Source: an uncultured Clostridia bacterium (GTDB lineage Bacteria > Bacillota > Clostridia > Christensenellales > UBA1242). Taken from it: a stretch of 24,000 bases of DNA. Below are positions 11,318-19,526 of the stretch, one piece after another (within the stretch, counting starts at the first letter, position 1; every line of letters begins with the position of its first letter). Made by a program: the position numbers and the translations under genes. The DNA is taken from NCBI GenBank assembly GCA_934757865.1, contig CAKVLS010000001.1, forward strand, positions 243,545-267,544, given 5' to 3'. The notes under the pieces were generated by a model. The model was not told the DNA's origin. It searched no databases and saw only the letters and a list, made by a program, of their open reading frames with translations.

Positions 11318-11527
11318 ATGACATTTGAACAAAATGAAAAAAGACTTGAAGAAATAGTTAATCTTTTGCAAGGAGATGTTACCCTTGAAGAAGGCACTAA
11401 ACTTTTTGAAGAGGGCGCAAATCTTATTAAAGAAAGTTTGAGTCTTTTGACCAAAACAAAAGGTAAAATTGAAACAATAAACAAAGATTTAGATAAATTT
11501 ATAAATGATACAGAGGTTAATGAATAA
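11318..11527 (+). CDS. xseB: Exodeoxyribonuclease VII small subunit
   Basis: 69 aa. Begins FEQNEKRLEEIVNLLQ and lies immediately after xseA. Confidence 0.9.
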   Translation: MTFEQNEKRLEEIVNLLQGDVTLEEGTKLFEEGANLIKESLSLLTKTKGKIETINKDLDKFINDTEVNE

Positions 11528-13254
11528 TGTATTTATCAAAATTAGTTGGAGAGAGAAGTAAACAAACTCCAAGTGGAGCTATTGTAAAAAATCATATTAT
11601 GCTACTTAGAGCAGGATATATTAAGCAAGTAGCGTCTGGTATATATACTTTACTTATGCCAGCACAAAAGAGTATATTAAAAATAGAAAAAATCGTTCGT
11701 GACGAGATGGATAAAATCGGCGGACAAGAGATGTTGTTCCCAGTTGTTATGCCAAAAGAACTTTGGGACGAAAGTGGCAGATATTCTTCTATTGGCGATG
11801 AGATGGCAAGATTTAATGATAGAAACAACCATGGTATGGTACTAGGCATGACTCACGAAGAGGCAGCTGTACACACTGTTCGCAATATTATTAAGAGTTA
11901 TGATCAGTTGCCTGTTATGATCTACCAAATGCAAACAAAATTTAGAGATGAGCCTCGCCCAAGGGCTGGACTTATAAGAGTAAGAGAGTTTACTATGAAA
12001 GATGCTTATTCTTTCCATATGACTCAAGAAGATCTTGAAAAATATTATCAAGTTGTTTTTGATTCGTATAACCGCATCTTTAAGAAAATAGGTATGAAGA
12101 ACTTTATATCAGTTCAAAGTGATACTGGTATGATGGGTGGTAAAGTTGCTCATGAGTTTATGCTTCTTACACCATCAGGAGAGGACAATCTTGTACTATG
12201 CGATAGTTGTGATTATAGAGCTAATCAAGAGGTTGCTGATTGTGTATTTGAAAAAGTTAATGGTGAAGATAAGCCTCTTACACTTGTGGCAACTCCTCAT
12301 TGTAAGACTATTGATGAAGTTTGCAGCTTCCTAAAATCAAAACCTGAGCTAAGTTGCAAAGCTGTTTGCTATGCTGTTAAAGGCGATAACAACCGTAGCG
12401 TAGTTGTATTTATTAGAGGCGATTTAGAGGTTAATGAGATTAAACTAAGTAAGATTGTTAAAGCTGAAGTTGTTCCTAATGACTTAACTAATAGCAAGCT
12501 TGTTGCAGGTTTTATTGGACCTTACAACATAGAGCTTGATGACGGAACAGAAGTCGTTTTTGATAAATCTTTAGAATGTATGCAAGGACTTATTGCTGGT
12601 GGTAACAAAGAAGGCTTCCACTATGAGGGGCTTTCTATGTCAAGAGATGTAAAAGATGCTAAGTTCTATGATATAGCTAATGTTCAAGAGGGCATGACTT
12701 GTCCTAAGTGTGGTAAAGGTCATCTTCATCTAAGCAAAGGTATTGAAATAGGAAATATCTTCCAACTAGGTACTAAATACACTAAGAGTATGGGTATGAC
12801 TGTACATGATAAAGATGGCAATGAAATTAACCCAATCATGGGCTGCTATGGTATAGGTATAGGCAGAGCTCTTGGTAGTGTTCTTGAAGAGTGGAGTGAT
12901 GAAAAAGGACTTGTATTCCCAATGAGTATAGCTCCATGGCAAGTTGTTTTGTGTCCTTTGAGACTAAATGACGAAAAGGTTCTTGCAGAGACAAATAGAT
13001 TGTATGAAGAACTTACAAAGAGCGGAGTTGAAGTTCTTTATGATGATAGAGATATTTCAGCTGGTGCAAAGTTTGCCGAAAGCGAGCTTATGGGTATGCC
13101 AATAAGAGTGGTAGTAAGTCCAAGATCGTTAGAAAATGGCGAAGTTGAAATAACAATTCGTAAGTCTGGCGAAAAGATTATGGAAAAGGCAGAAAATGCT
13201 GTTTCAAAAGTAAAAGAATTGATTGCTGCCGAGATGAAAGAGTACAAGTGTTAG
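11527..13254 (+). CDS. proS: Prolyl-tRNA synthetase (bacterial type with editing insertion)
   Basis: 575 aa. Class II motifs (FRDE.RPRAGL.R.REF.MKDAYSF; GCYGIG..R), a central INS-like region and a C-terminal anticodon-binding domain. The start overlaps the xseB stop (TAATG). Confidence 0.9.
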   Translation: MYLSKLVGERSKQTPSGAIVKNHIMLLRAGYIKQVASGIYTLLMPAQKSILKIEKIVRDEMDKIGGQEMLFPVVMPKELWDESGRYSSIGDEMARFNDRNNHGMVLGMTHEEAAVHTVRNIIKSYDQLPVMIYQMQTKFRDEPRPRAGLIRVREFTMKDAYSFHMTQEDLEKYYQVVFDSYNRIFKKIGMKNFISVQSDTGMMGGKVAHEFMLLTPSGEDNLVLCDSCDYRANQEVADCVFEKVNGEDKPLTLVATPHCKTIDEVCSFLKSKPELSCKAVCYAVKGDNNRSVVVFIRGDLEVNEIKLSKIVKAEVVPNDLTNSKLVAGFIGPYNIELDDGTEVVFDKSLECMQGLIAGGNKEGFHYEGLSMSRDVKDAKFYDIANVQEGMTCPKCGKGHLHLSKGIEIGNIFQLGTKYTKSMGMTVHDKDGNEINPIMGCYGIGIGRALGSVLEEWSDEKGLVFPMSIAPWQVVLCPLRLNDEKVLAETNRLYEELTKSGVEVLYDDRDISAGAKFAESELMGMPIRVVVSPRSLENGEVEITIRKSGEKIMEKAENAVSKVKELIAAEMKEYKC

Positions 13255-13267
13255 GATATTTATTAGT

Positions 13268-13296
13268 AAGGGCGATTTTGTCGCCCTTATTTTTTT
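13268..13296 (+). terminator. Rho-independent terminator after proS
   Basis: Stem AAGGGCGA (13268-13275) pairs with TCGCCCTT (13281-13288). The loop is TTTTG and the U-tract runs to 13296. Confidence 0.85.
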
Positions 13297-13388
13297 GATC
13301 AAAATTGTATTGCTAATTTACTTTTGTCTATTATTTAACCCGAAAAAGTTTAATTTTTGAGCCAATTAGCTAATTACTTTGAAAACAC

Positions 13389-13417
13389 TTGAAAATTATC
13401 ATAATTTATGCTATAAT
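13389..13417 (+). promoter_or_regulatory. Near-consensus sigma-A promoter driving the large ncRNA
   Basis: TTGAAA (13389-13394), exact 17-nt spacer, extended -10 TGcTATAAT (13409-13417). Predicted start near 13424-13426. Confidence 0.7.
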
Positions 13418-13424
13418 CTCAATA

Positions 13425-14010
13425 TACATATATTAAGATACAGTATTCTAGTCGAGAGATGTTGTTTGGAAGGTGATTTAGTCATAAAGCACCATAGAGC
13501 ACATCGATGAAACTTCTGGTGTGTGCTTCGGTTGCCCAAACTGGGGTGCATGCTGGAAGGTAGAATTATGGAAGGACTATAACGGCATATAGTTTTCTCT
13601 CCATTTTTCGCGGAGGCTTATCTCGGTAAATAGGTCTAATGGTCTTATTTACTGACTAAGATTAAACCTGCTATGCGGCAAAATATAAAGCTGTGTACAG
13701 AGTAGCTTGCTATGAGTGGAGTATTGCGAATTAGTGTCTTAGTGGCTGTTTGCTGGCCGGCGACAGCTACTATCTGGCTATGAAACATATTCTGCAAAAA
13801 TAGATAAAAACGGCGTCTTTCGTTAAGGAAAACTTCTAGACTGTTAACAAGTATTTGTTTTGCTTATTAGGGATTATAGTGTGGTCTTATAGGCGATTTG
13901 GTTAGGCGAGTGGTAACACCGCCTTGCGGAGATTAAATGGAAACGGCTTGTGCGGCGACGGCAAGTTCTCAGTAGGGAAATCCTACCAAACCAATGCCGC
14001 AAGGTTTACT
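13425..14010 (+). ncRNA. ole: Large (~580 nt) highly structured non-coding RNA, best interpreted as an OLE-class (ornate, large, extremophilic) RNA
   Basis: No ORF in the supplied track occupies this gap on either strand. It has a dedicated promoter, and G+C is ~50% in several 60-nt blocks versus ~25% in flanking spacer (hand counts). Multiple helices are listed in the findings, including an 11-bp hairpin 13740-13772, a GUAA-capped hairpin 13905-13923, and a 14-bp long-range helix 13663-13680/13995-14008. No terminator precedes the downstream 4-TM protein gene. The neighbourhood (asp23, nusB, xseAB ... argR, recN) matches published OLE loci. The boundaries are approximate. The class assignment rests on context and architecture, not on a verified consensus match. 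Confidence 0.6.
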
Positions 14011-14076
14011 TAATAAGTATTCTTAATTAATATGTATATTTTTTATAATATAATGGAGTAGAATAAATAATTTATT

Positions 14077-14682
14077 ATGGAAAGTCCGAGTGGTGAAAAC
14101 CCGAATAGTACCAAACAAAAACCTCAAAAAGATAAAGTAACAACAAAGAATAAAAAACCTTTCAAATACGCATGGCCAATTAAAGCTGGTATATTAACAC
14201 TTATGCTTGCTCTTATGTTTGGCGTATTGTCAGAGGTGCTTTTGTCCAACGCAAGTATAGTTATAGCAATCATCGTTATAGTATTCCTTATGGCAATTAG
14301 TATTGTATTTGATCTTATAGGTGTTGCATTTGCTTGTTGTCCGTTGGAGCCTATTCTTGCAATGGCGTCAAGAAAGGTAAGAGGTAGTAAGGCTGCCATT
14401 GCCATGGTAAGAAGAGGAGACATTGTATCTTCTGTTTGCTCTGACATTATAGGTGATATGTGTGGTATCCTAAGTGGTGCTGCAGGTGCTGCTGTTGCGG
14501 CAAAAATTATTATGTCACAAACTGGAGCAGTAGCGGTAATTATTGCGTCTGTTGTATCAGCTGTTATTACAGCTCTTACTGTATTTGGTAAAGCTATGTG
14601 TAAGCGTCTTGCTGTTGAAAAATGTGTTCCTATTGTATCTTTTGTAAGTAAATTATTAAGCATTTTTAGTAAGAACAAATAA
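14077..14682 (+). CDS. oapA: Small four-TM membrane protein with a basic N-terminal tail, OapA-like (OLE-associated protein A candidate)
   Basis: 201 aa. Lys-rich N-terminus (KQKPQKDKVTTKNKKPFKY) followed by four predicted TM helices carrying intramembrane acidic residues (SIVFDLIG, CSDIIGDMCG). It lies directly downstream of the structured RNA with no intervening terminator. The Shine-Dalgarno is weak or absent (GGAG is 18 nt upstream). Confidence 0.6.
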   Translation: MESPSGENPNSTKQKPQKDKVTTKNKKPFKYAWPIKAGILTLMLALMFGVLSEVLLSNASIVIAIIVIVFLMAISIVFDLIGVAFACCPLEPILAMASRKVRGSKAAIAMVRRGDIVSSVCSDIIGDMCGILSGAAGAAVAAKIIMSQTGAVAVIIASVVSAVITALTVFGKAMCKRLAVEKCVPIVSFVSKLLSIFSKNK

Positions 14683-14717
14683 TCTAATAATATAGAAAAA
14701 TAATAGAGTAGTACCGA

Positions 14718-14746
14718 GTAGTACCTGTTTTGGGTGCTACTTTTTT
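14718..14746 (+). terminator. Rho-independent terminator after the OapA-like gene
   Basis: Stem GTAGTACC (14718-14725) pairs with GGTGCTAC (14733-14740), with one G-U pair. The U-tract spans 14741-14746. The left arm is part of a perfect tandem 10-nt duplication, GAGTAGTACC x2 (14706-14725). Confidence 0.75.
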
Positions 14747-15627: not shown

Positions 15628-15662
15628 GAATCATTTGCGCTTATCTCGCAAGTGATTTTTTG
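15628..15662 (+). terminator. Rho-independent terminator after argR
   Basis: 10-bp stem ATCATTTGCG (15630-15639) pairs with CGCAAGTGAT (15647-15656), with one G-U pair. 7-nt loop, then U-tract 15657-15661. Confidence 0.8.
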
Positions 15663-15719
15663 TTATTTATTGTTGTTATTTTTGGTCATATTTGTTATAA
15701 TTTTAGCAGGTGGAATTTT

Positions 15720-17420
15720 ATGTTAAGTTATCTAAAAATAAATAATGTAGCTTTGATTGATAGTCTTACGATTAACTTTTGTGATGGCTTTAATGTTTTG
15801 ACCGGCGAAACAGGTGCTGGTAAAAGTATTATTGTTGATTCCCTAACTTTTGTTTTGGGCGGAAAAGTTAACAAAAATCTTATCAGGTCTGGACAATCTC
15901 AAATGAGAGTCGAGGCTATGTTTGACGGTCCTTTTGACAAGAAGATAACTGACATTTTGGCAGAATATGATATAGAAGAAGATGGCGAGCTTTTGATAAC
16001 TAGGTCTTATACAGAAAATGGCAAAAACGATATAAAAGTTAACGGCAGCACCATTACAACAACTATGCTAAAACCTATAACCTCAGCCTTAGTAGATATT
16101 TTGGGTCAACACGAGCACCAGTCTATTTTGAAAGAGAAATTCCAACTAGATATAATAGATATATTGGGCGGAACAGATATAAGCTTGCTAAAAGTAAATG
16201 TAAGTGACCTTTATACAAAACTTCAAAATATCAATAGAGAGATAGAATCTCTAGGTAGTGATGCTCACAGTAGAGAGCGTATGATGGACCTTCTACAATA
16301 TCAAATAAAAGAAATAGAAACCTTTGGGCTAAAAGAAGGCGAAGAAGAAGAACTTACTAATGAAAGGCTAAAAAGTCTAAACGGCGAAAAGATAACAACA
16401 GGTCTTAACCTTGCTTGTAACGAATTATCTAACGCTAATTACAGCGTTTGTGATGGCATCAAAAAGTCTATCTCAGCTCTAAATAGTATCGTAAAATATG
16501 ATGAGAGATTAGACAATATAATTGCTAGATTAGACTCGGCTAAGATAGAACTTCAAGATATAGCTGATACATTAGAGCAGTATAACGAAGAGTGCACTTT
16601 TGATGAGAGCTATTTTGAGAAAATAGACAAGAGGTTAGACGAACTAAAAAGCCTAAAGAAAAAGTATGGTTCAAGCTACGAAGAAATAATGCAGTTCCTA
16701 AATAGCGCAAAAACTGAGTTTGACAATTTGGTTAATAGCGAAGGTAGACTAAGAGAGCTGAATGACGAAAAGGCACAAGTTGTAACAGAGTTATACAAAG
16801 ACTCTGTTAAACTATCAAATGCAAGAAAATTGACAGCCAAAAAGTTTGAGTTCCTTGTAAAAGGACAGCTTGATGACCTTGGTATGAAAAATGCTAATTT
16901 CCAAATTGACTTTGAGCCATTTGGCGATAAAGACGAGGTTAAGTATACATCTAACGGACTTGATAAAGTTACATATATGTTCACCGCCAATGTAGGTCAG
17001 CCGTTGAAATCTCTATCTGAAATTATCTCTGGTGGTGAGATGAGCAGATTTATGCTAGGACTAAAAAATATACTAGCTGATATAGATGATATCGGCACTA
17101 TGGTATTTGACGAAATTGACACCGGTATTAGCGGTAATATCGGTTATGTTATAGCTTGCATGATGGCTAACATCTCTCACAAGCACCAAGTTATAGCTAT
17201 ATCTCATTTACCTCAAATAGCTGCTATGGCAGATAAAAACTTCTTTATAGAAAAAACCATAGTTAATGTCGACACTGTAACTAGTCTAAAAGAGCTTGAC
17301 GAGGCTGGCGTTCTTACAGAAGTTTCTAGACTATCTGGTGGACAGAGCGGAAGTCTTGTTTCTCTAGACCATGCAAAAGAGCTAAGAGATACTTGTAACA
17401 ATTATAAAAAAAGTATTTAG
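15720..17420 (+). CDS. recN: DNA repair protein RecN
   Basis: The track ORF starts at TTG 15660, inside the argR terminator. ATG 15720 is preferred because AGGTGG lies upstream and the canonical N-terminus MLSYLKINNVALIDSL begins there. Contains Walker A (GETGAGKS), a long coiled coil and the SMC signature (SGGEMSR) with Walker B (MVFDEIDTG). Confidence 0.9.
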   Translation: MLSYLKINNVALIDSLTINFCDGFNVLTGETGAGKSIIVDSLTFVLGGKVNKNLIRSGQSQMRVEAMFDGPFDKKITDILAEYDIEEDGELLITRSYTENGKNDIKVNGSTITTTMLKPITSALVDILGQHEHQSILKEKFQLDIIDILGGTDISLLKVNVSDLYTKLQNINREIESLGSDAHSRERMMDLLQYQIKEIETFGLKEGEEEELTNERLKSLNGEKITTGLNLACNELSNANYSVCDGIKKSISALNSIVKYDERLDNIIARLDSAKIELQDIADTLEQYNEECTFDESYFEKIDKRLDELKSLKKKYGSSYEEIMQFLNSAKTEFDNLVNSEGRLRELNDEKAQVVTELYKDSVKLSNARKLTAKKFEFLVKGQLDDLGMKNANFQIDFEPFGDKDEVKYTSNGLDKVTYMFTANVGQPLKSLSEIISGGEMSRFMLGLKNILADIDDIGTMVFDEIDTGISGNIGYVIACMMANISHKHQVIAISHLPQIAAMADKNFFIEKTIVNVDTVTSLKELDEAGVLTEVSRLSGGQSGSLVSLDHAKELRDTCNNYKKSI

Positions 17421-18824: not shown

Positions 18825-19526
18825 ATGTACACAGCATACTATTACACAAAAGAGAATAACGAGACTACCGAAACAGTTGAGTATTTGGCTAAAAAATATT
18901 GTCTTAAACTAGAAAGAATTACAGACCTTAGACAAATGATTTTGCGTGGTTCTGATTTGACTAAATATTCTTTGATAGTAGATACTACTAATGTTAATAT
19001 TAGCGATGATCTAATTGATTATATGATTAACTGTGGCGGAAATTCTAAGCTTATGGGTATAATATTGATTGGGGACAAGGATTATACCTGCAAAGTTGCT
19101 GATAACTTACATGTTTATGTTGTTCATATTGGGGAAGGGTTCGGGGCAGAACTTGTTGATAAGTCTTATAGACTCAAAGACAACGATGCGGTAAAAATGC
19201 TTACAGATAGCTTGAGCGAAAAAGTAGATGATATCTTGCTATCTGCCAAGGTTACCCCAAAGTATTTAGGTTATGGATTTTTGAAAGATGCAATTATTTA
19301 TTGTCTAGCTGGTAATGGCAGTGTAGAGAAGTTAAGTAATGTTGTTTATCCTTATATCGCTGGCAAAAATGGAACAAAAGCTAGCAGTGTTGAGAGAAAT
19401 ATAAGAATAGCTATAGAAGTGGCTTGGAGAGGAACAAACACTTCTTTTGGATTTGAAGAAAAACCATCTAATAAAGCATTTATTGCTTTTGTCGTTAATG
19501 ATATAAAAAGATTAGCTAACAAGTAA
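18825..19526 (+). CDS. spo0A: Spo0A-like sporulation master regulator with a degenerate (pseudo-)receiver domain
   Basis: 233 aa with an AGAGGGA RBS. An in-frame TAA at 18804-18806 excludes a longer N-terminus. The C-terminal half matches the Spo0A DNA-binding domain (KYLGYGFLKDAI..., TKASSVERNIRIAIEVAW, KPSNKAFIAFVVNDI). The N-terminal ~125 aa has the alternating beta/alpha receiver pattern but lacks the acidic pair, the conserved Thr/Ser and the conserved Lys. Position downstream of spoIVB is canonical. Confidence 0.8.
   Translation: MYTAYYYTKENNETTETVEYLAKKYCLKLERITDLRQMILRGSDLTKYSLIVDTTNVNISDDLIDYMINCGGNSKLMGIILIGDKDYTCKVADNLHVYVVHIGEGFGAELVDKSYRLKDNDAVKMLTDSLSEKVDDILLSAKVTPKYLGYGFLKDAIIYCLAGNGSVEKLSNVVYPYIAGKNGTKASSVERNIRIAIEVAWRGTNTSFGFEEKPSNKAFIAFVVNDIKRLANK

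What the first reader, a model, noticed from the sequence alone, without database searches (positions are those of the whole stretch)
13389..14010. Promoter-driven, ~580-nt ornate structured RNA in the ORF-free gap after proS (OLE-class candidate)
The gap 13255-14076 has no track ORF on either strand. It still carries its own near-consensus promoter (TTGAAA, 17 nt, TGcTATAAT) immediately after a strong proS terminator. G+C jumps sharply: hand counts give 32/60 for 13501-13560 and 32/60 for 13921-13980, versus 15/60 for 13321-13380. Hand folding yields many helices. Local hairpins: 13497-13504/13521-13528; 13573-13581/13588-13596; 13626-13634/13644-13652; 13688-13694/13702-13708. There is an 11-bp hairpin at 13740-13750/13762-13772, a GUAA (GNRA)-capped hairpin at 13905-13912/13917-13923, and another hairpin at 13972-13977/13981-13986. 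One helix closes a 5' domain (13447-13453/13654-13661). An interrupted 14-bp long-range helix (13663-13669/14002-14008 plus 13674-13680/13995-14001) closes a ~330-nt 3' domain. No terminator separates the RNA from the downstream membrane-protein gene, which implies co-transcription. The size, multi-domain fold and neighbourhood match what is published for OLE RNA. OLE is a rare giant bacterial ncRNA that forms a membrane-bound RNP of still unclear biochemical function. I cannot recite the OLE consensus, so this could instead be a divergent variant or a distinct large RNA class occupying the same locus.
Basis: partly seen in the sequence, partly recalled or inferred. Interest (0 to 1): 0.85.

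Follow-up and report, generated by a model that had tools for sequence, protein, structure and literature searches.

The report
Ordinary full-length OLE RNA gene

Summary
The finding is real and the class call is correct. Rfam's OLE model (RF01071) matches window 13419-14040 (+) end to end, at 380 bits against a cut-off of 50 (E 1e-108). It is the only Rfam hit in the window. The RNA core, bounded by helix P1, is 13433-14027. A near-consensus promoter (13389-13417) drives it and follows the proS terminator (13265-13291). The next gene is oapA (14077-14682), with no terminator in between. oapA carries the OapA-specific DxxxD motif.

I aligned 75 homologous RNAs, found directly upstream of oapA in gut and other Bacillota genomes. 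Covariation strongly supports the Rfam structure: 84.8% of cells pair against 66.9% in shuffles, and 128 of 157 pairs change on both sides. It also supports the published helices P1, P2 and P3, which the Rfam model lacks.

Its two domain-closing long-range helices are not supported. The 5' domain is really closed by P3 (13453-13467 with 13807-13821).

The source is an uncultured human-gut Clostridia bacterium. Such hosts are already described for OLE. The only local oddity is gene order: proS replaces ispA, and dxs and tlyA are absent. This is a known family, so interest is low.

The parts
13265..13291 (+). Intrinsic terminator of proS. It insulates the OLE gene from upstream transcription.
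   Evidence: 12-bp stem with 5 G-C pairs, a 3-nt loop, then TTTTTGATCA.
13389..13417 (+). Sigma-70-type promoter of the ole gene (TTGAAA, 17 nt, TGcTATAAT). The inferred start is near 13424, about 9 nt before P1.
   Evidence: 11 of 12 match with TG, the best site in the region; 60 of 73 related loci have a promoter matching at least 9 of 12 within 90 nt upstream of P1. Their -10 box mostly ends 5-15 nt before P1, and 15 nt before it here.
13419..14040 (+). Extent of the Rfam OLE (RF01071) match.
   Evidence: 380.2 bits, E 1.4e-108, model 1-616/616, not truncated. Of 157 model pairs, 144 are canonical in this sequence.
13433..14027 (+). OLE RNA core as bounded by helix P1 (13433-13438 with 14021-14026), 595 nt.
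   Evidence: P1 is 90% paired across 75 sequences, and 5 of 6 pairs change on both sides. Cognate duplexes average -11.3 kcal/mol against -6.0 for non-cognate ones, better in 72 of 73. The thermodynamic fold also closes the ends.
13441..13451 (+). 5' strand of P2 (CAGU..CUAG). It pairs with 13836-13843 (CUAGACUG).
   Evidence: both halves are 100% paired in 74 sequences. The CAGU/ACUG half shows compensatory changes (GC to UG, CG or UA in 10 sequences; CG to UA in 2). The CUAG/CUAG half is invariant.
13453..13467 (+). 5' strand of P3, the long-range helix that closes domain 1 (P4-P9). Its partner is 13807-13821.
   Evidence: 15 contiguous pairs, -19.6 kcal/mol. Across relatives, cognate duplexes average -14.1 against -6.0 kcal/mol for non-cognate ones, better in 74 of 74 (p = 4e-14). 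The minimum-free-energy fold predicts it independently. MAFFT columns are misaligned in this variable region, so the support comes from the per-sequence test.
13807..13821 (+). 3' strand of P3.
   Evidence: Same as for the 5' strand of P3.
13472..13493 (+). P4 hairpin with the loop UUAGUCAUAA. In the published dimer structure this loop forms the A-A bridge.
   Evidence: helix 1, 83.5% paired, 5 of 6 pairs change on both sides. The loop differs from the consensus UAAAAA but keeps AUAAA. The numbering is my mapping onto PMC12265935.
13494..13512 (+). Conserved junction GCACAUCGAUGAA. It holds the AUCGAU palindrome (P4a region, mapped OapA site) and the GA of the kink turn.
   Evidence: These columns are invariant in A2 (G81 to A93). 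The roles come from PMC12265935 and PMC12286853. The mapping to these bases is my inference.
13513..13559 (+). P5/P5.1, a 20-bp hairpin with loop GCCCA.
   Evidence: 20 of 20 pairs canonical. helix 2: 96.1% paired and 12 pairs change on both sides. UGCC at 13533-13536 is complementary to GGCA at 13584-13587 in the P6.1 loop, the published intermolecular kissing contact (PMC12265935).
13563..13609 (+). P6/P6.1, with loop AACGGCAU.
   Evidence: helices 4 and 5 (81.5% and 98.7% paired).
13617..13660 (+). P7 hairpin (17 pairs).
   Evidence: 16 of 17 canonical. helix 6: 14 pairs change on both sides.
13668..13700 (+). P8 hairpin, rich in G-U pairs. Only 9 of 13 pairs are canonical here.
   Evidence: helix 7: 84% paired and 8 pairs change on both sides.
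13709..13804 (+). P9 three-part long arm. Its terminal loop UGGCCG (13754-13759) carries the GGCC palindrome.
   Evidence: helices 8-12. The outer parts are 87-89% paired. The distal parts are poorly aligned by MAFFT. The GGCC kissing-loop role comes from PMC12286853.
13825..13860 (+). P10 (13825-27/13833-35) and P11 (13845-48/13857-60), flanking the P2 3' strand.
   Evidence: helices 13 (98.7% paired) and 14.
13861..14019 (+). 3' domain closed by P12 (13861-71/14009-19), P12.1 (13880-84/13997-14001) and P12.2 (13897-902/13985-90). It contains P13, P14 and P14.1/P15.
   Evidence: helices 15-17: 98.1%, 98.9% and 98.2% paired, with 10, 4 and 4 pairs changing on both sides. Cognate against non-cognate duplex for P12: -12.9 against -4.7 kcal/mol, better in 75 of 75.
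13904..13924 (+). P13 hairpin with a GUAA (GNRA) tetraloop and a single bulged A13909. These are the published OapB-binding determinants.
   Evidence: 8 of 8 pairs canonical. The requirement for a GNRA loop plus a one-base bulge comes from PMC7936274. A second GNRA loop (GCGA, 13955-13958) caps P14.1/P15.
14077..14682 (+). oapA, encoding the 201-aa membrane partner of OLE RNA.
   Evidence: DIIGD (the DxxxD motif) lies at residues 123-127, with basic clusters and about four hydrophobic segments. D123 and D127 are invariant in A1. The weak CNNM hit is 23.3 bits, below the cut-off of 28.4, as published for OapA (PMC11332333). An OLE lies directly upstream of the homologue in 78 of 84 loci.
14716..14742 (+). 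Terminator ending the inferred ole-oapA transcription unit.
   Evidence: 12-bp stem followed by a T-run.

Best explanation
Window 13433-14027 (+) is the gene for a full-length OLE (ornate, large, extremophilic) RNA in an uncultured human-gut, spore-forming Clostridia bacterium.

**Shown here**
- The RNA matches the family model end to end.
- Its secondary structure, including P1, P2 and P3, is supported by covariation in 75 relatives.
- It has its own conserved promoter.
- It lies directly upstream of oapA with no terminator in between.

**Inferred from published work on Halalkalibacterium halodurans and two Clostridium OLE RNAs**
- The RNA is made from its own promoter together with oapA mRNA.
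- It folds into a 5' domain (P3-P9) and a terminal domain (P1, P2, P10-P15).
- It dimerises through the P5.1/P6.1 and P9 loop contacts. The sequences for these contacts are present here.
- OapA dimers hold it at the cell membrane. OapB (on the P13 GNRA loop and bulge) and OapC or bS21 (on the kink turn) probably also bind.

Its most likely job is as the RNA subunit of a membrane stress-response particle. That particle would tune an OapA-dependent activity, probably divalent-cation transport, since OapA is a distant CNNM/MpfA relative. The biochemical activity of the RNA itself is unknown in the field.
For: - Rfam RF01071 matches at 380.2 bits, E 1.4e-108, model 1-616/616. Relatives score 264-528 bits.
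- In the Rfam structure, 144 of 157 pairs are canonical in this sequence.
- Across 75 homologues, 84.8% of cells pair against 66.9% in shuffles and about 42% in slid controls. 128 of 157 pairs change on both sides.
- P1, P2 and P3 are supported.
- The fold has z = -4.5.
- A promoter is conserved in 60 of 73 relatives.
- An OLE lies directly upstream of oapA, on the same strand, in 78 of 84 loci.
- OapA has the DxxxD motif and a sub-threshold CNNM match, as described in PMC11332333.
- The OapB determinants, the kissing-loop complementarity and the GGCC palindrome are present (PMC7936274, PMC12286853, PMC12265935).
- Synteny is nusB-xseA-xseB-[..]-ole-oapA-[..]-argR-recN-spoIVB-spo0A. Relatives carry ispA upstream and dxs or tlyA downstream.
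Against: - No expression, localisation or binding data exist for this organism.
- OapB and OapC genes could not be looked for, because only 24 kb is available.
- The P4 loop departs from the A-rich consensus, and P8 has only 9 of 13 canonical pairs here. Some published contacts may therefore be weaker in this species.
- The function of OLE RNA is unresolved even in model species, so the mechanistic part rests on inference from other organisms.
Confidence: 0.95

Rival explanations
1. The region is mainly a long structured 5' leader that controls oapA expression in cis, like a riboswitch or attenuator, rather than a stable RNA working in trans.
For: No terminator separates it from oapA, and the two are probably co-transcribed. 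The gap to the oapA start is only 49 nt.
Against: P1 pairs the 5' and 3' ends into a closed unit that covaries. There is no expression platform and no terminator or anti-terminator pair. In the model species the RNA accumulates as an abundant species of about 630 nt and binds OapA protein (PMC9723947, PMC12265935). About 100 invariant positions over 600 nt are far more than a leader would need.
Confidence: 0.03
2. It is a divergent variant, or a distinct large RNA class that happens to occupy the OLE locus.
For: The P4 loop differs from the consensus. The gene neighbours differ from the classical ispA-ole-oapA-dxs order.
Against: The family model matches full-length at 380 bits, in the middle of the 264-528 range seen in relatives. 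P7, P8, P9 and P13, the elements shortened or lost in published variants 1 and 2 (PMC11332333), are all present.
Confidence: 0.01
3. The RNA also adopts the first reader's alternative conformer. In it, 13663-13680 (J7/8 plus the P8 5' strand) pairs with 13995-14008 (the P12.1 3' strand plus J12.1/12). This would link the two domains and act as a switch.
For: In this sequence the duplex is -19.2 kcal/mol. It is the best partner for that segment anywhere in the RNA, and only 4% of shuffles do as well. The complementarity is largely conserved, at 82-87% of cells paired. The competing helices P8 and P12.1 are rich in G-U pairs.
Against: There is no covariation. Cognate and non-cognate duplexes are equal (-11.10 against -11.13 kcal/mol), and pairing is no better than column shuffles. 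Where the 3' strand varies, the change is compensated in its Rfam partner (P12.1 98.9% paired) and not in the proposed partner (27 of 75 mismatches at one position). The invariant CC faces a variable position, which is 'aa' in the Rfam consensus. The published architecture puts the two segments in different domains (PMC12265935).
Confidence: 0.05

Closest known systems
OLE RNA (Rfam RF01071; Puerta-Fernandez et al. 2006), 'full-length' type of Fernando & Breaker 2024
   Same: Full-length match to the covariance model. About 600 nt. The same helices, P1 to P15. The same invariant sequence blocks. oapA lies immediately downstream. It has its own promoter, as reported for H. halodurans (PMC9723947). 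The host is an anaerobic Bacillota. The syntenic block is nusB-xseAB ... argR-recN-spoIVB-spo0A.
   Different: The host is a human-gut commensal known only from metagenomes, not an extremophile. proS sits where ispA usually sits, and dxs, tlyA and nadK are missing from between oapA and argR. The P4 loop is UUAGUCAUAA rather than the UAAAAA consensus. The -10 box lies about 10 nt further from P1 than in most relatives.
[quoted passage not shown]
   Same: The habitat is the same: uncultured gut Bacillota. The P4 stem-loop resembles the type seen in relatives that lack P13.
   Different: This RNA keeps full-size P7, P8 and P9. It also keeps the P13 GNRA hairpin with its bulge. 27 of the 75 relatives aligned here lack that hairpin.
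MpfA/CorB/CNNM divalent-cation transporters (PF01595)
   Same: The partner protein OapA gives a weak match to the CNNM transmembrane domain (E 5.8e-5). This agrees with the published distant relationship.
   Different: The score is below Pfam's cut-off (23.3 against 28.4 bits). OapA has no CBS or CorC domains, and it carries DxxxD, which CNNM domains lack (PMC11332333). In the published proposal the RNA takes the place of the missing domains. That idea is not tested here.

Membership tests
OLE RNA (RF01071) | Match to the curated covariance model above its gathering score, over the full model | tested here: met
   380.2 bits against 50, E 1.4e-108, positions 1-616 of 616, not truncated.
OLE RNA (RF01071) | About 600 nt with a multi-helix structure (about 25 paired elements) supported by covariation | tested here: met
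   The core is 595 nt. 144 of 157 model pairs are canonical. 84.8% of cells pair against 66.9% in shuffles, and 128 pairs change on both sides. P1, P2 and P3 are also supported.
OLE RNA (RF01071) | Large blocks of near-invariant sequence (about 25% of positions) | tested here: met
   about 100 invariant and about 90 nearly invariant columns among 75 sequences. The window sequence carries the consensus base at the invariant ones.
OLE RNA (RF01071) | oapA gene immediately downstream on the same strand | tested here: met
   oapA is at 14077-14682, 49 nt after P1. 78 of 84 oapA loci have OLE directly upstream.
OLE RNA (RF01071) | Host is an anaerobic or extremophilic member of Bacillota | tested here: inconclusive
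   The window carries spoIIIA, spoIVB and spo0A homologues. The exact OapA protein occurs in human-gut metagenomes, and the nearest genomes are 'Clostridia bacterium' MAGs. No species name or physiology is available.
OLE RNA (RF01071) | OapB site: GNRA tetraloop plus a one-base bulge in P13, next to P12.2 | tested here: met
   GUAA loop at 13913-13916, bulged A13909, P12.2 with 6 of 6 pairs. The criterion comes from PMC7936274. Binding itself is not testable here.
OLE RNA (RF01071) | Dimer contacts: complementary P5.1 and P6.1 loops, and a palindromic P9 terminal loop | tested here: met
   UGCC 13533-36 against GGCA 13584-87. GGCC lies in loop 13754-59. The criteria come from PMC12265935 and PMC12286853. 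Only the sequences were checked, not dimer formation.
OLE RNA (RF01071) | Abundant stable RNA that forms a membrane-bound ribonucleoprotein with OapA, OapB and OapC | not testable with these tools
   This needs transcript, localisation and binding experiments. OapB and OapC genes lie outside the 24-kb window, if they are present at all.
OapA protein | Small membrane protein with four transmembrane helices, a DxxxD motif and a basic cytoplasmic cluster | tested here: met
   201 aa, with DIIGD at 123-127. D123 and D127 are invariant in 24 homologues. There are about four hydrophobic segments: three clear peaks on a 19-residue Kyte-Doolittle window, plus residues 36-56, which I judged by eye. 6 of 21 residues at 95-115 are basic.
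CNNM/MpfA transporters (PF01595) | Pfam CNNM domain above the gathering score, with CBS and CorC domains | tested here: not met
   23.3 bits, below 28.4, with no other domains. This protein is therefore not filed as an MpfA-family member. It is only a distant relative, as published.

The most novel reading that the evidence does not exclude
In this gut lineage the conserved 12-14-nt complementarity between J7/8-P8 (13663-13680) and P12.1-J12.1/12 (13995-14008) may be a real alternative pairing. In this sequence it is 14 bp and -19.2 kcal/mol. The G-U-rich helices P8 and P12.1 would open to link the two OLE domains. That would be a conformational switch not described for OLE RNA.
Probability: 0.04. 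Interest if true: 0.55.

Novelty: already known. Interest (0 to 1): 0.15.

Why it matters
[quoted passage not shown] A correct annotation therefore has some value. It marks this uncultured human-gut Clostridia lineage as carrying the full-length form with an intact OapB site, unlike the reduced variants reported for other gut clades. It also shows the ole-oapA pair staying together with its own promoter after the usual isoprenoid neighbours (ispA, dxs) were lost or moved. This argues that the isoprenoid link is not obligatory. None of this changes what is known about the family.

Tried and rejected
I tested the five helices absent from the Rfam structure, plus the long-range pair, in two ways: column counting and a per-sequence cognate against non-cognate duplex test. 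Neither gave covariation support.
- **P3 by column counting.** This failed on the MAFFT alignment (39.8% paired), because the region is variable and has indels. The per-sequence duplex test replaced it.
- **Distinct-class and reduced-variant readings.** Both are rejected by the full-length model match and by the presence of P7-P9 and P13.
- **Naming the organism.** The cluster look-up returned no names. The nearest species-level genome has only 62% OapA identity.
- **Solved structures.** A PDB sequence search with the OapA profile found no real relative (best E 0.63).
- **Protein family libraries.** NCBIfam has no model that matches OapA.
- **Small ORFs in the gap.** I did not pursue the 42-50-aa ORFs. 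They overlap a covarying RNA structure, and one of them starts upstream of the promoter.

Full report
**1. What is at the coordinates**

The stretch between proS (11527-13254; NCBIfam proline-tRNA ligase, 652 bits) and the next gene (14077-14682) holds only mechanical ORFs of 42-50 aa.
- A terminator lies at 13265-13291.
- The best promoter-like site in the region is at 13389-13417: TTGAAA, 17 nt, TATAAT with an upstream TG, 11 of 12.
- No terminator-like site occurs before 14716-14742.
- The three G+C counts are reproduced exactly.
- The RNA core is 41% G+C. Its flanks are 24% and 10%.
- Folded alone, 13433-14027 gives -186.6 kcal/mol, z = -4.5, and none of 100 shuffles folds as well.

**2. 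What it is**

A scan of the whole window against Rfam 15 gives one hit, RF01071 OLE, at 13419-14040 (+). The score is 380.2 bits against a gathering score of 50, with E = 1.4e-108. It covers model positions 1-616 of 616 and is not truncated. Mapped onto the window, 144 of the model's 157 base pairs are canonical.

**3. Independent support from relatives**

The downstream protein occurs with an identical sequence in human-gut metagenome assemblies, including Hadza samples. A profile of its homologues (A1) found relatives in more than 586 species-level genomes. Of these, 80 loci were fetched.

nhmmer with the window RNA finds a homologous RNA directly upstream of the oapA homologue, on the same strand, in 78 of 84 loci. 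Rfam confirms OLE in the 8 of those that I re-tested, at 264-528 bits. Thermoanaerobacterium is among them.

On a MAFFT alignment of 75 of these RNAs (A2), the Rfam structure is strongly supported.
- 84.8% of cells pair, against 66.9% in column shuffles and about 42% in slid controls.
- 128 of 157 pairs change on both sides.

**4. Helices missing from the Rfam model**

The recent literature describes a two-domain architecture: P3-P9 as one domain, and P1, P2 and P10-P15 as the other (PMC12265935). The Rfam consensus leaves P1, P2 and P3 unpaired. I located all three in the window.

| Helix | Window coordinates | Support |
|---|---|---|
| P1 | 13433-38 / 14021-26 | 90% paired, 5 of 6 pairs change on both sides. 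Cognate against non-cognate duplex -11.3 against -6.0 kcal/mol, better in 72 of 73. |
| P2 | 13441-44 / 13840-43 and 13448-51 / 13836-39 | 100% paired. Compensatory changes in the first half. |
| P3 | 13453-67 / 13807-21 | 15 contiguous pairs, -19.6 kcal/mol. Cognate -14.1 against non-cognate -6.0 kcal/mol, better in 74 of 74, p = 4e-14. |

The thermodynamic fold finds P1 and P3 on its own. The mapping of helix numbers onto coordinates is my own reading of the papers' text, because the figures are not available.

**5.

Four of its hairpins coincide wholly or partly with real helices (P6.1, P7, P9 and P13). The others are not family pairs.

The proposed 5'-domain closure (13447-53/13654-61) has the wrong partner. 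P3 closes that domain.

The 14-bp long-range helix (13663-69/14002-08 plus 13674-80/13995-14001) is thermodynamically plausible in this sequence. It scores -19.2 kcal/mol and is the best partner in the RNA for that segment, and 4% of shuffles do as well. Its complementarity is mostly conserved. Three results count against it.
- It shows no covariation (75.8% against 75.2% in shuffles; cognate equals non-cognate).
- Where its 3' strand varies, the change is compensated in the P12.1 partner (98.9% paired) and not in the proposed partner.
- The invariant CC faces a variable position.

I treat it as a by-product of conserved sequence. There is a small residual chance that it is an alternative conformer.

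**6. Functional elements present by sequence**

- P13 carries a GUAA tetraloop and a single bulged A13909. These are the two features required for OapB binding (PMC7936274).
- A second GNRA loop, GCGA, is at 13955-58.
- The P5.1 loop (UGCC) and the P6.1 loop (GGCA) are complementary. The P9 terminal loop contains GGCC. Both match the published intermolecular dimer contacts (PMC12265935, PMC12286853).
- The conserved GAUGAA and GGAG junctions of the kink turn are invariant.
- The P4 loop departs from the A-rich consensus but keeps AUAAA.
- All elements that are shortened or lost in published gut variants 1 and 2 (P7, P8, P9, the end of P13; PMC11332333) are present here. This is therefore the full-length type.

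**7. Partner gene and surroundings**

The 201-aa downstream protein fits OapA as described in PMC11332333.
- It has DIIGD (DxxxD) at 123-127, invariant in its homologues.
- It has about four hydrophobic segments and basic clusters.
- It gives a sub-threshold CNNM match (23.3 against 28.4 bits).

The window is syntenic with the classical OLE neighbourhood: spoIIIA genes, an Asp23-family gene, nusB, xseA, xseB, then ole-oapA, then argR, recN, spoIVB and spo0A.

Among relatives, the gene upstream of ole is most often ispA (18 loci), xseA (11) or proS (5). The gene after oapA is most often dxs (14), argR (10) or tlyA (7).

In this lineage proS starts on the last base of xseB and occupies the ispA position. 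dxs and tlyA are absent from the locus.

**8. Promoter**

A dedicated promoter is a family-wide feature in this set. 60 of 73 relatives have a site matching at least 9 of 12 within 90 nt of P1. The -10 box usually ends 5-15 nt before P1. An own promoter was already reported for H. halodurans ole (PMC9723947).

**9. Mechanism, known state and novelty**

I commit to the published model. The RNA is the scaffold of a membrane-bound, dimeric ribonucleoprotein with OapA. The particle helps cells cope with alcohol, cold, excess Mg2+ and poor carbon sources, probably by modulating an OapA cation-transport activity (PMC12265935, PMC11332333, PMC10898510).

In this window, identity, structure, promoter and gene linkage are shown. 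Everything about binding, localisation and physiology is inferred from other species.

OLE has been catalogued in 2,822 Bacillota genomes, including uncultured gut clades (PMC11332333). This is therefore an ordinary member of a known family, and any Rfam-based annotation would detect it. Interest is low.

Noticed in passing
window 18825-19526: The Spo0A homologue matches Pfam only through its C-terminal Spo0A_C domain (residues 135-226). The 130-residue N-terminal part gives no response-regulator receiver hit even at E <= 0.01. The phosphorylation domain may be degenerate.
   Followed up: partly
window 11318-13254: proS begins on the last base of xseB, so the two look translationally coupled. 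proS occupies the slot where relatives carry ispA. dxs, tlyA and nadK are missing from between oapA and argR.
   Followed up: partly
window 14027-14054: A second promoter-like site (TTAATA, 16 nt, TATAAT, 10 of 12) lies between the end of OLE and oapA. It could give OLE-independent oapA transcription. The region is 10% G+C, so it may be a chance match.
   Followed up: no
window 13975-13983 (A2 columns 708-716): The conserved GGGAAAUCC, single-stranded in the Rfam model, could form a 3-bp GGG/UCC stem. Two of its pairs each show compensatory GC-to-AU changes in two sequences (helix 7). The evidence is too thin to call.
   Followed up: partly
A2 columns 616-651; e.g. L018, L012, L077, L007: 27 of the 75 related OLE RNAs lack the P13 GNRA hairpin entirely and have short P7 stems. 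This matches the published 'variant 1', which has lost the OapB site.
   Followed up: partly
L054, L061, L063, L080: These loci encode OapA homologues and have about 4 kb of upstream DNA, but no OLE by nhmmer or Rfam. L054 has two tRNA genes there instead. oapA is therefore not always next to ole.
   Followed up: partly
L079, L058, L043 (A2 columns 149-170 and 333-350): The OLE RNAs labelled Neopoerus, Pelethomonas and Oscillospiraceae carry extra G+C-rich hairpin inserts between P5 and P6 and in the P8 loop.
   Followed up: no
window 15660-17420: The listed recN ORF starts at a TTG with an odd 20-residue extension. The gene called on identical metagenome contigs is 566 aa, so the real start is probably the ATG at 15720.
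   Followed up: no
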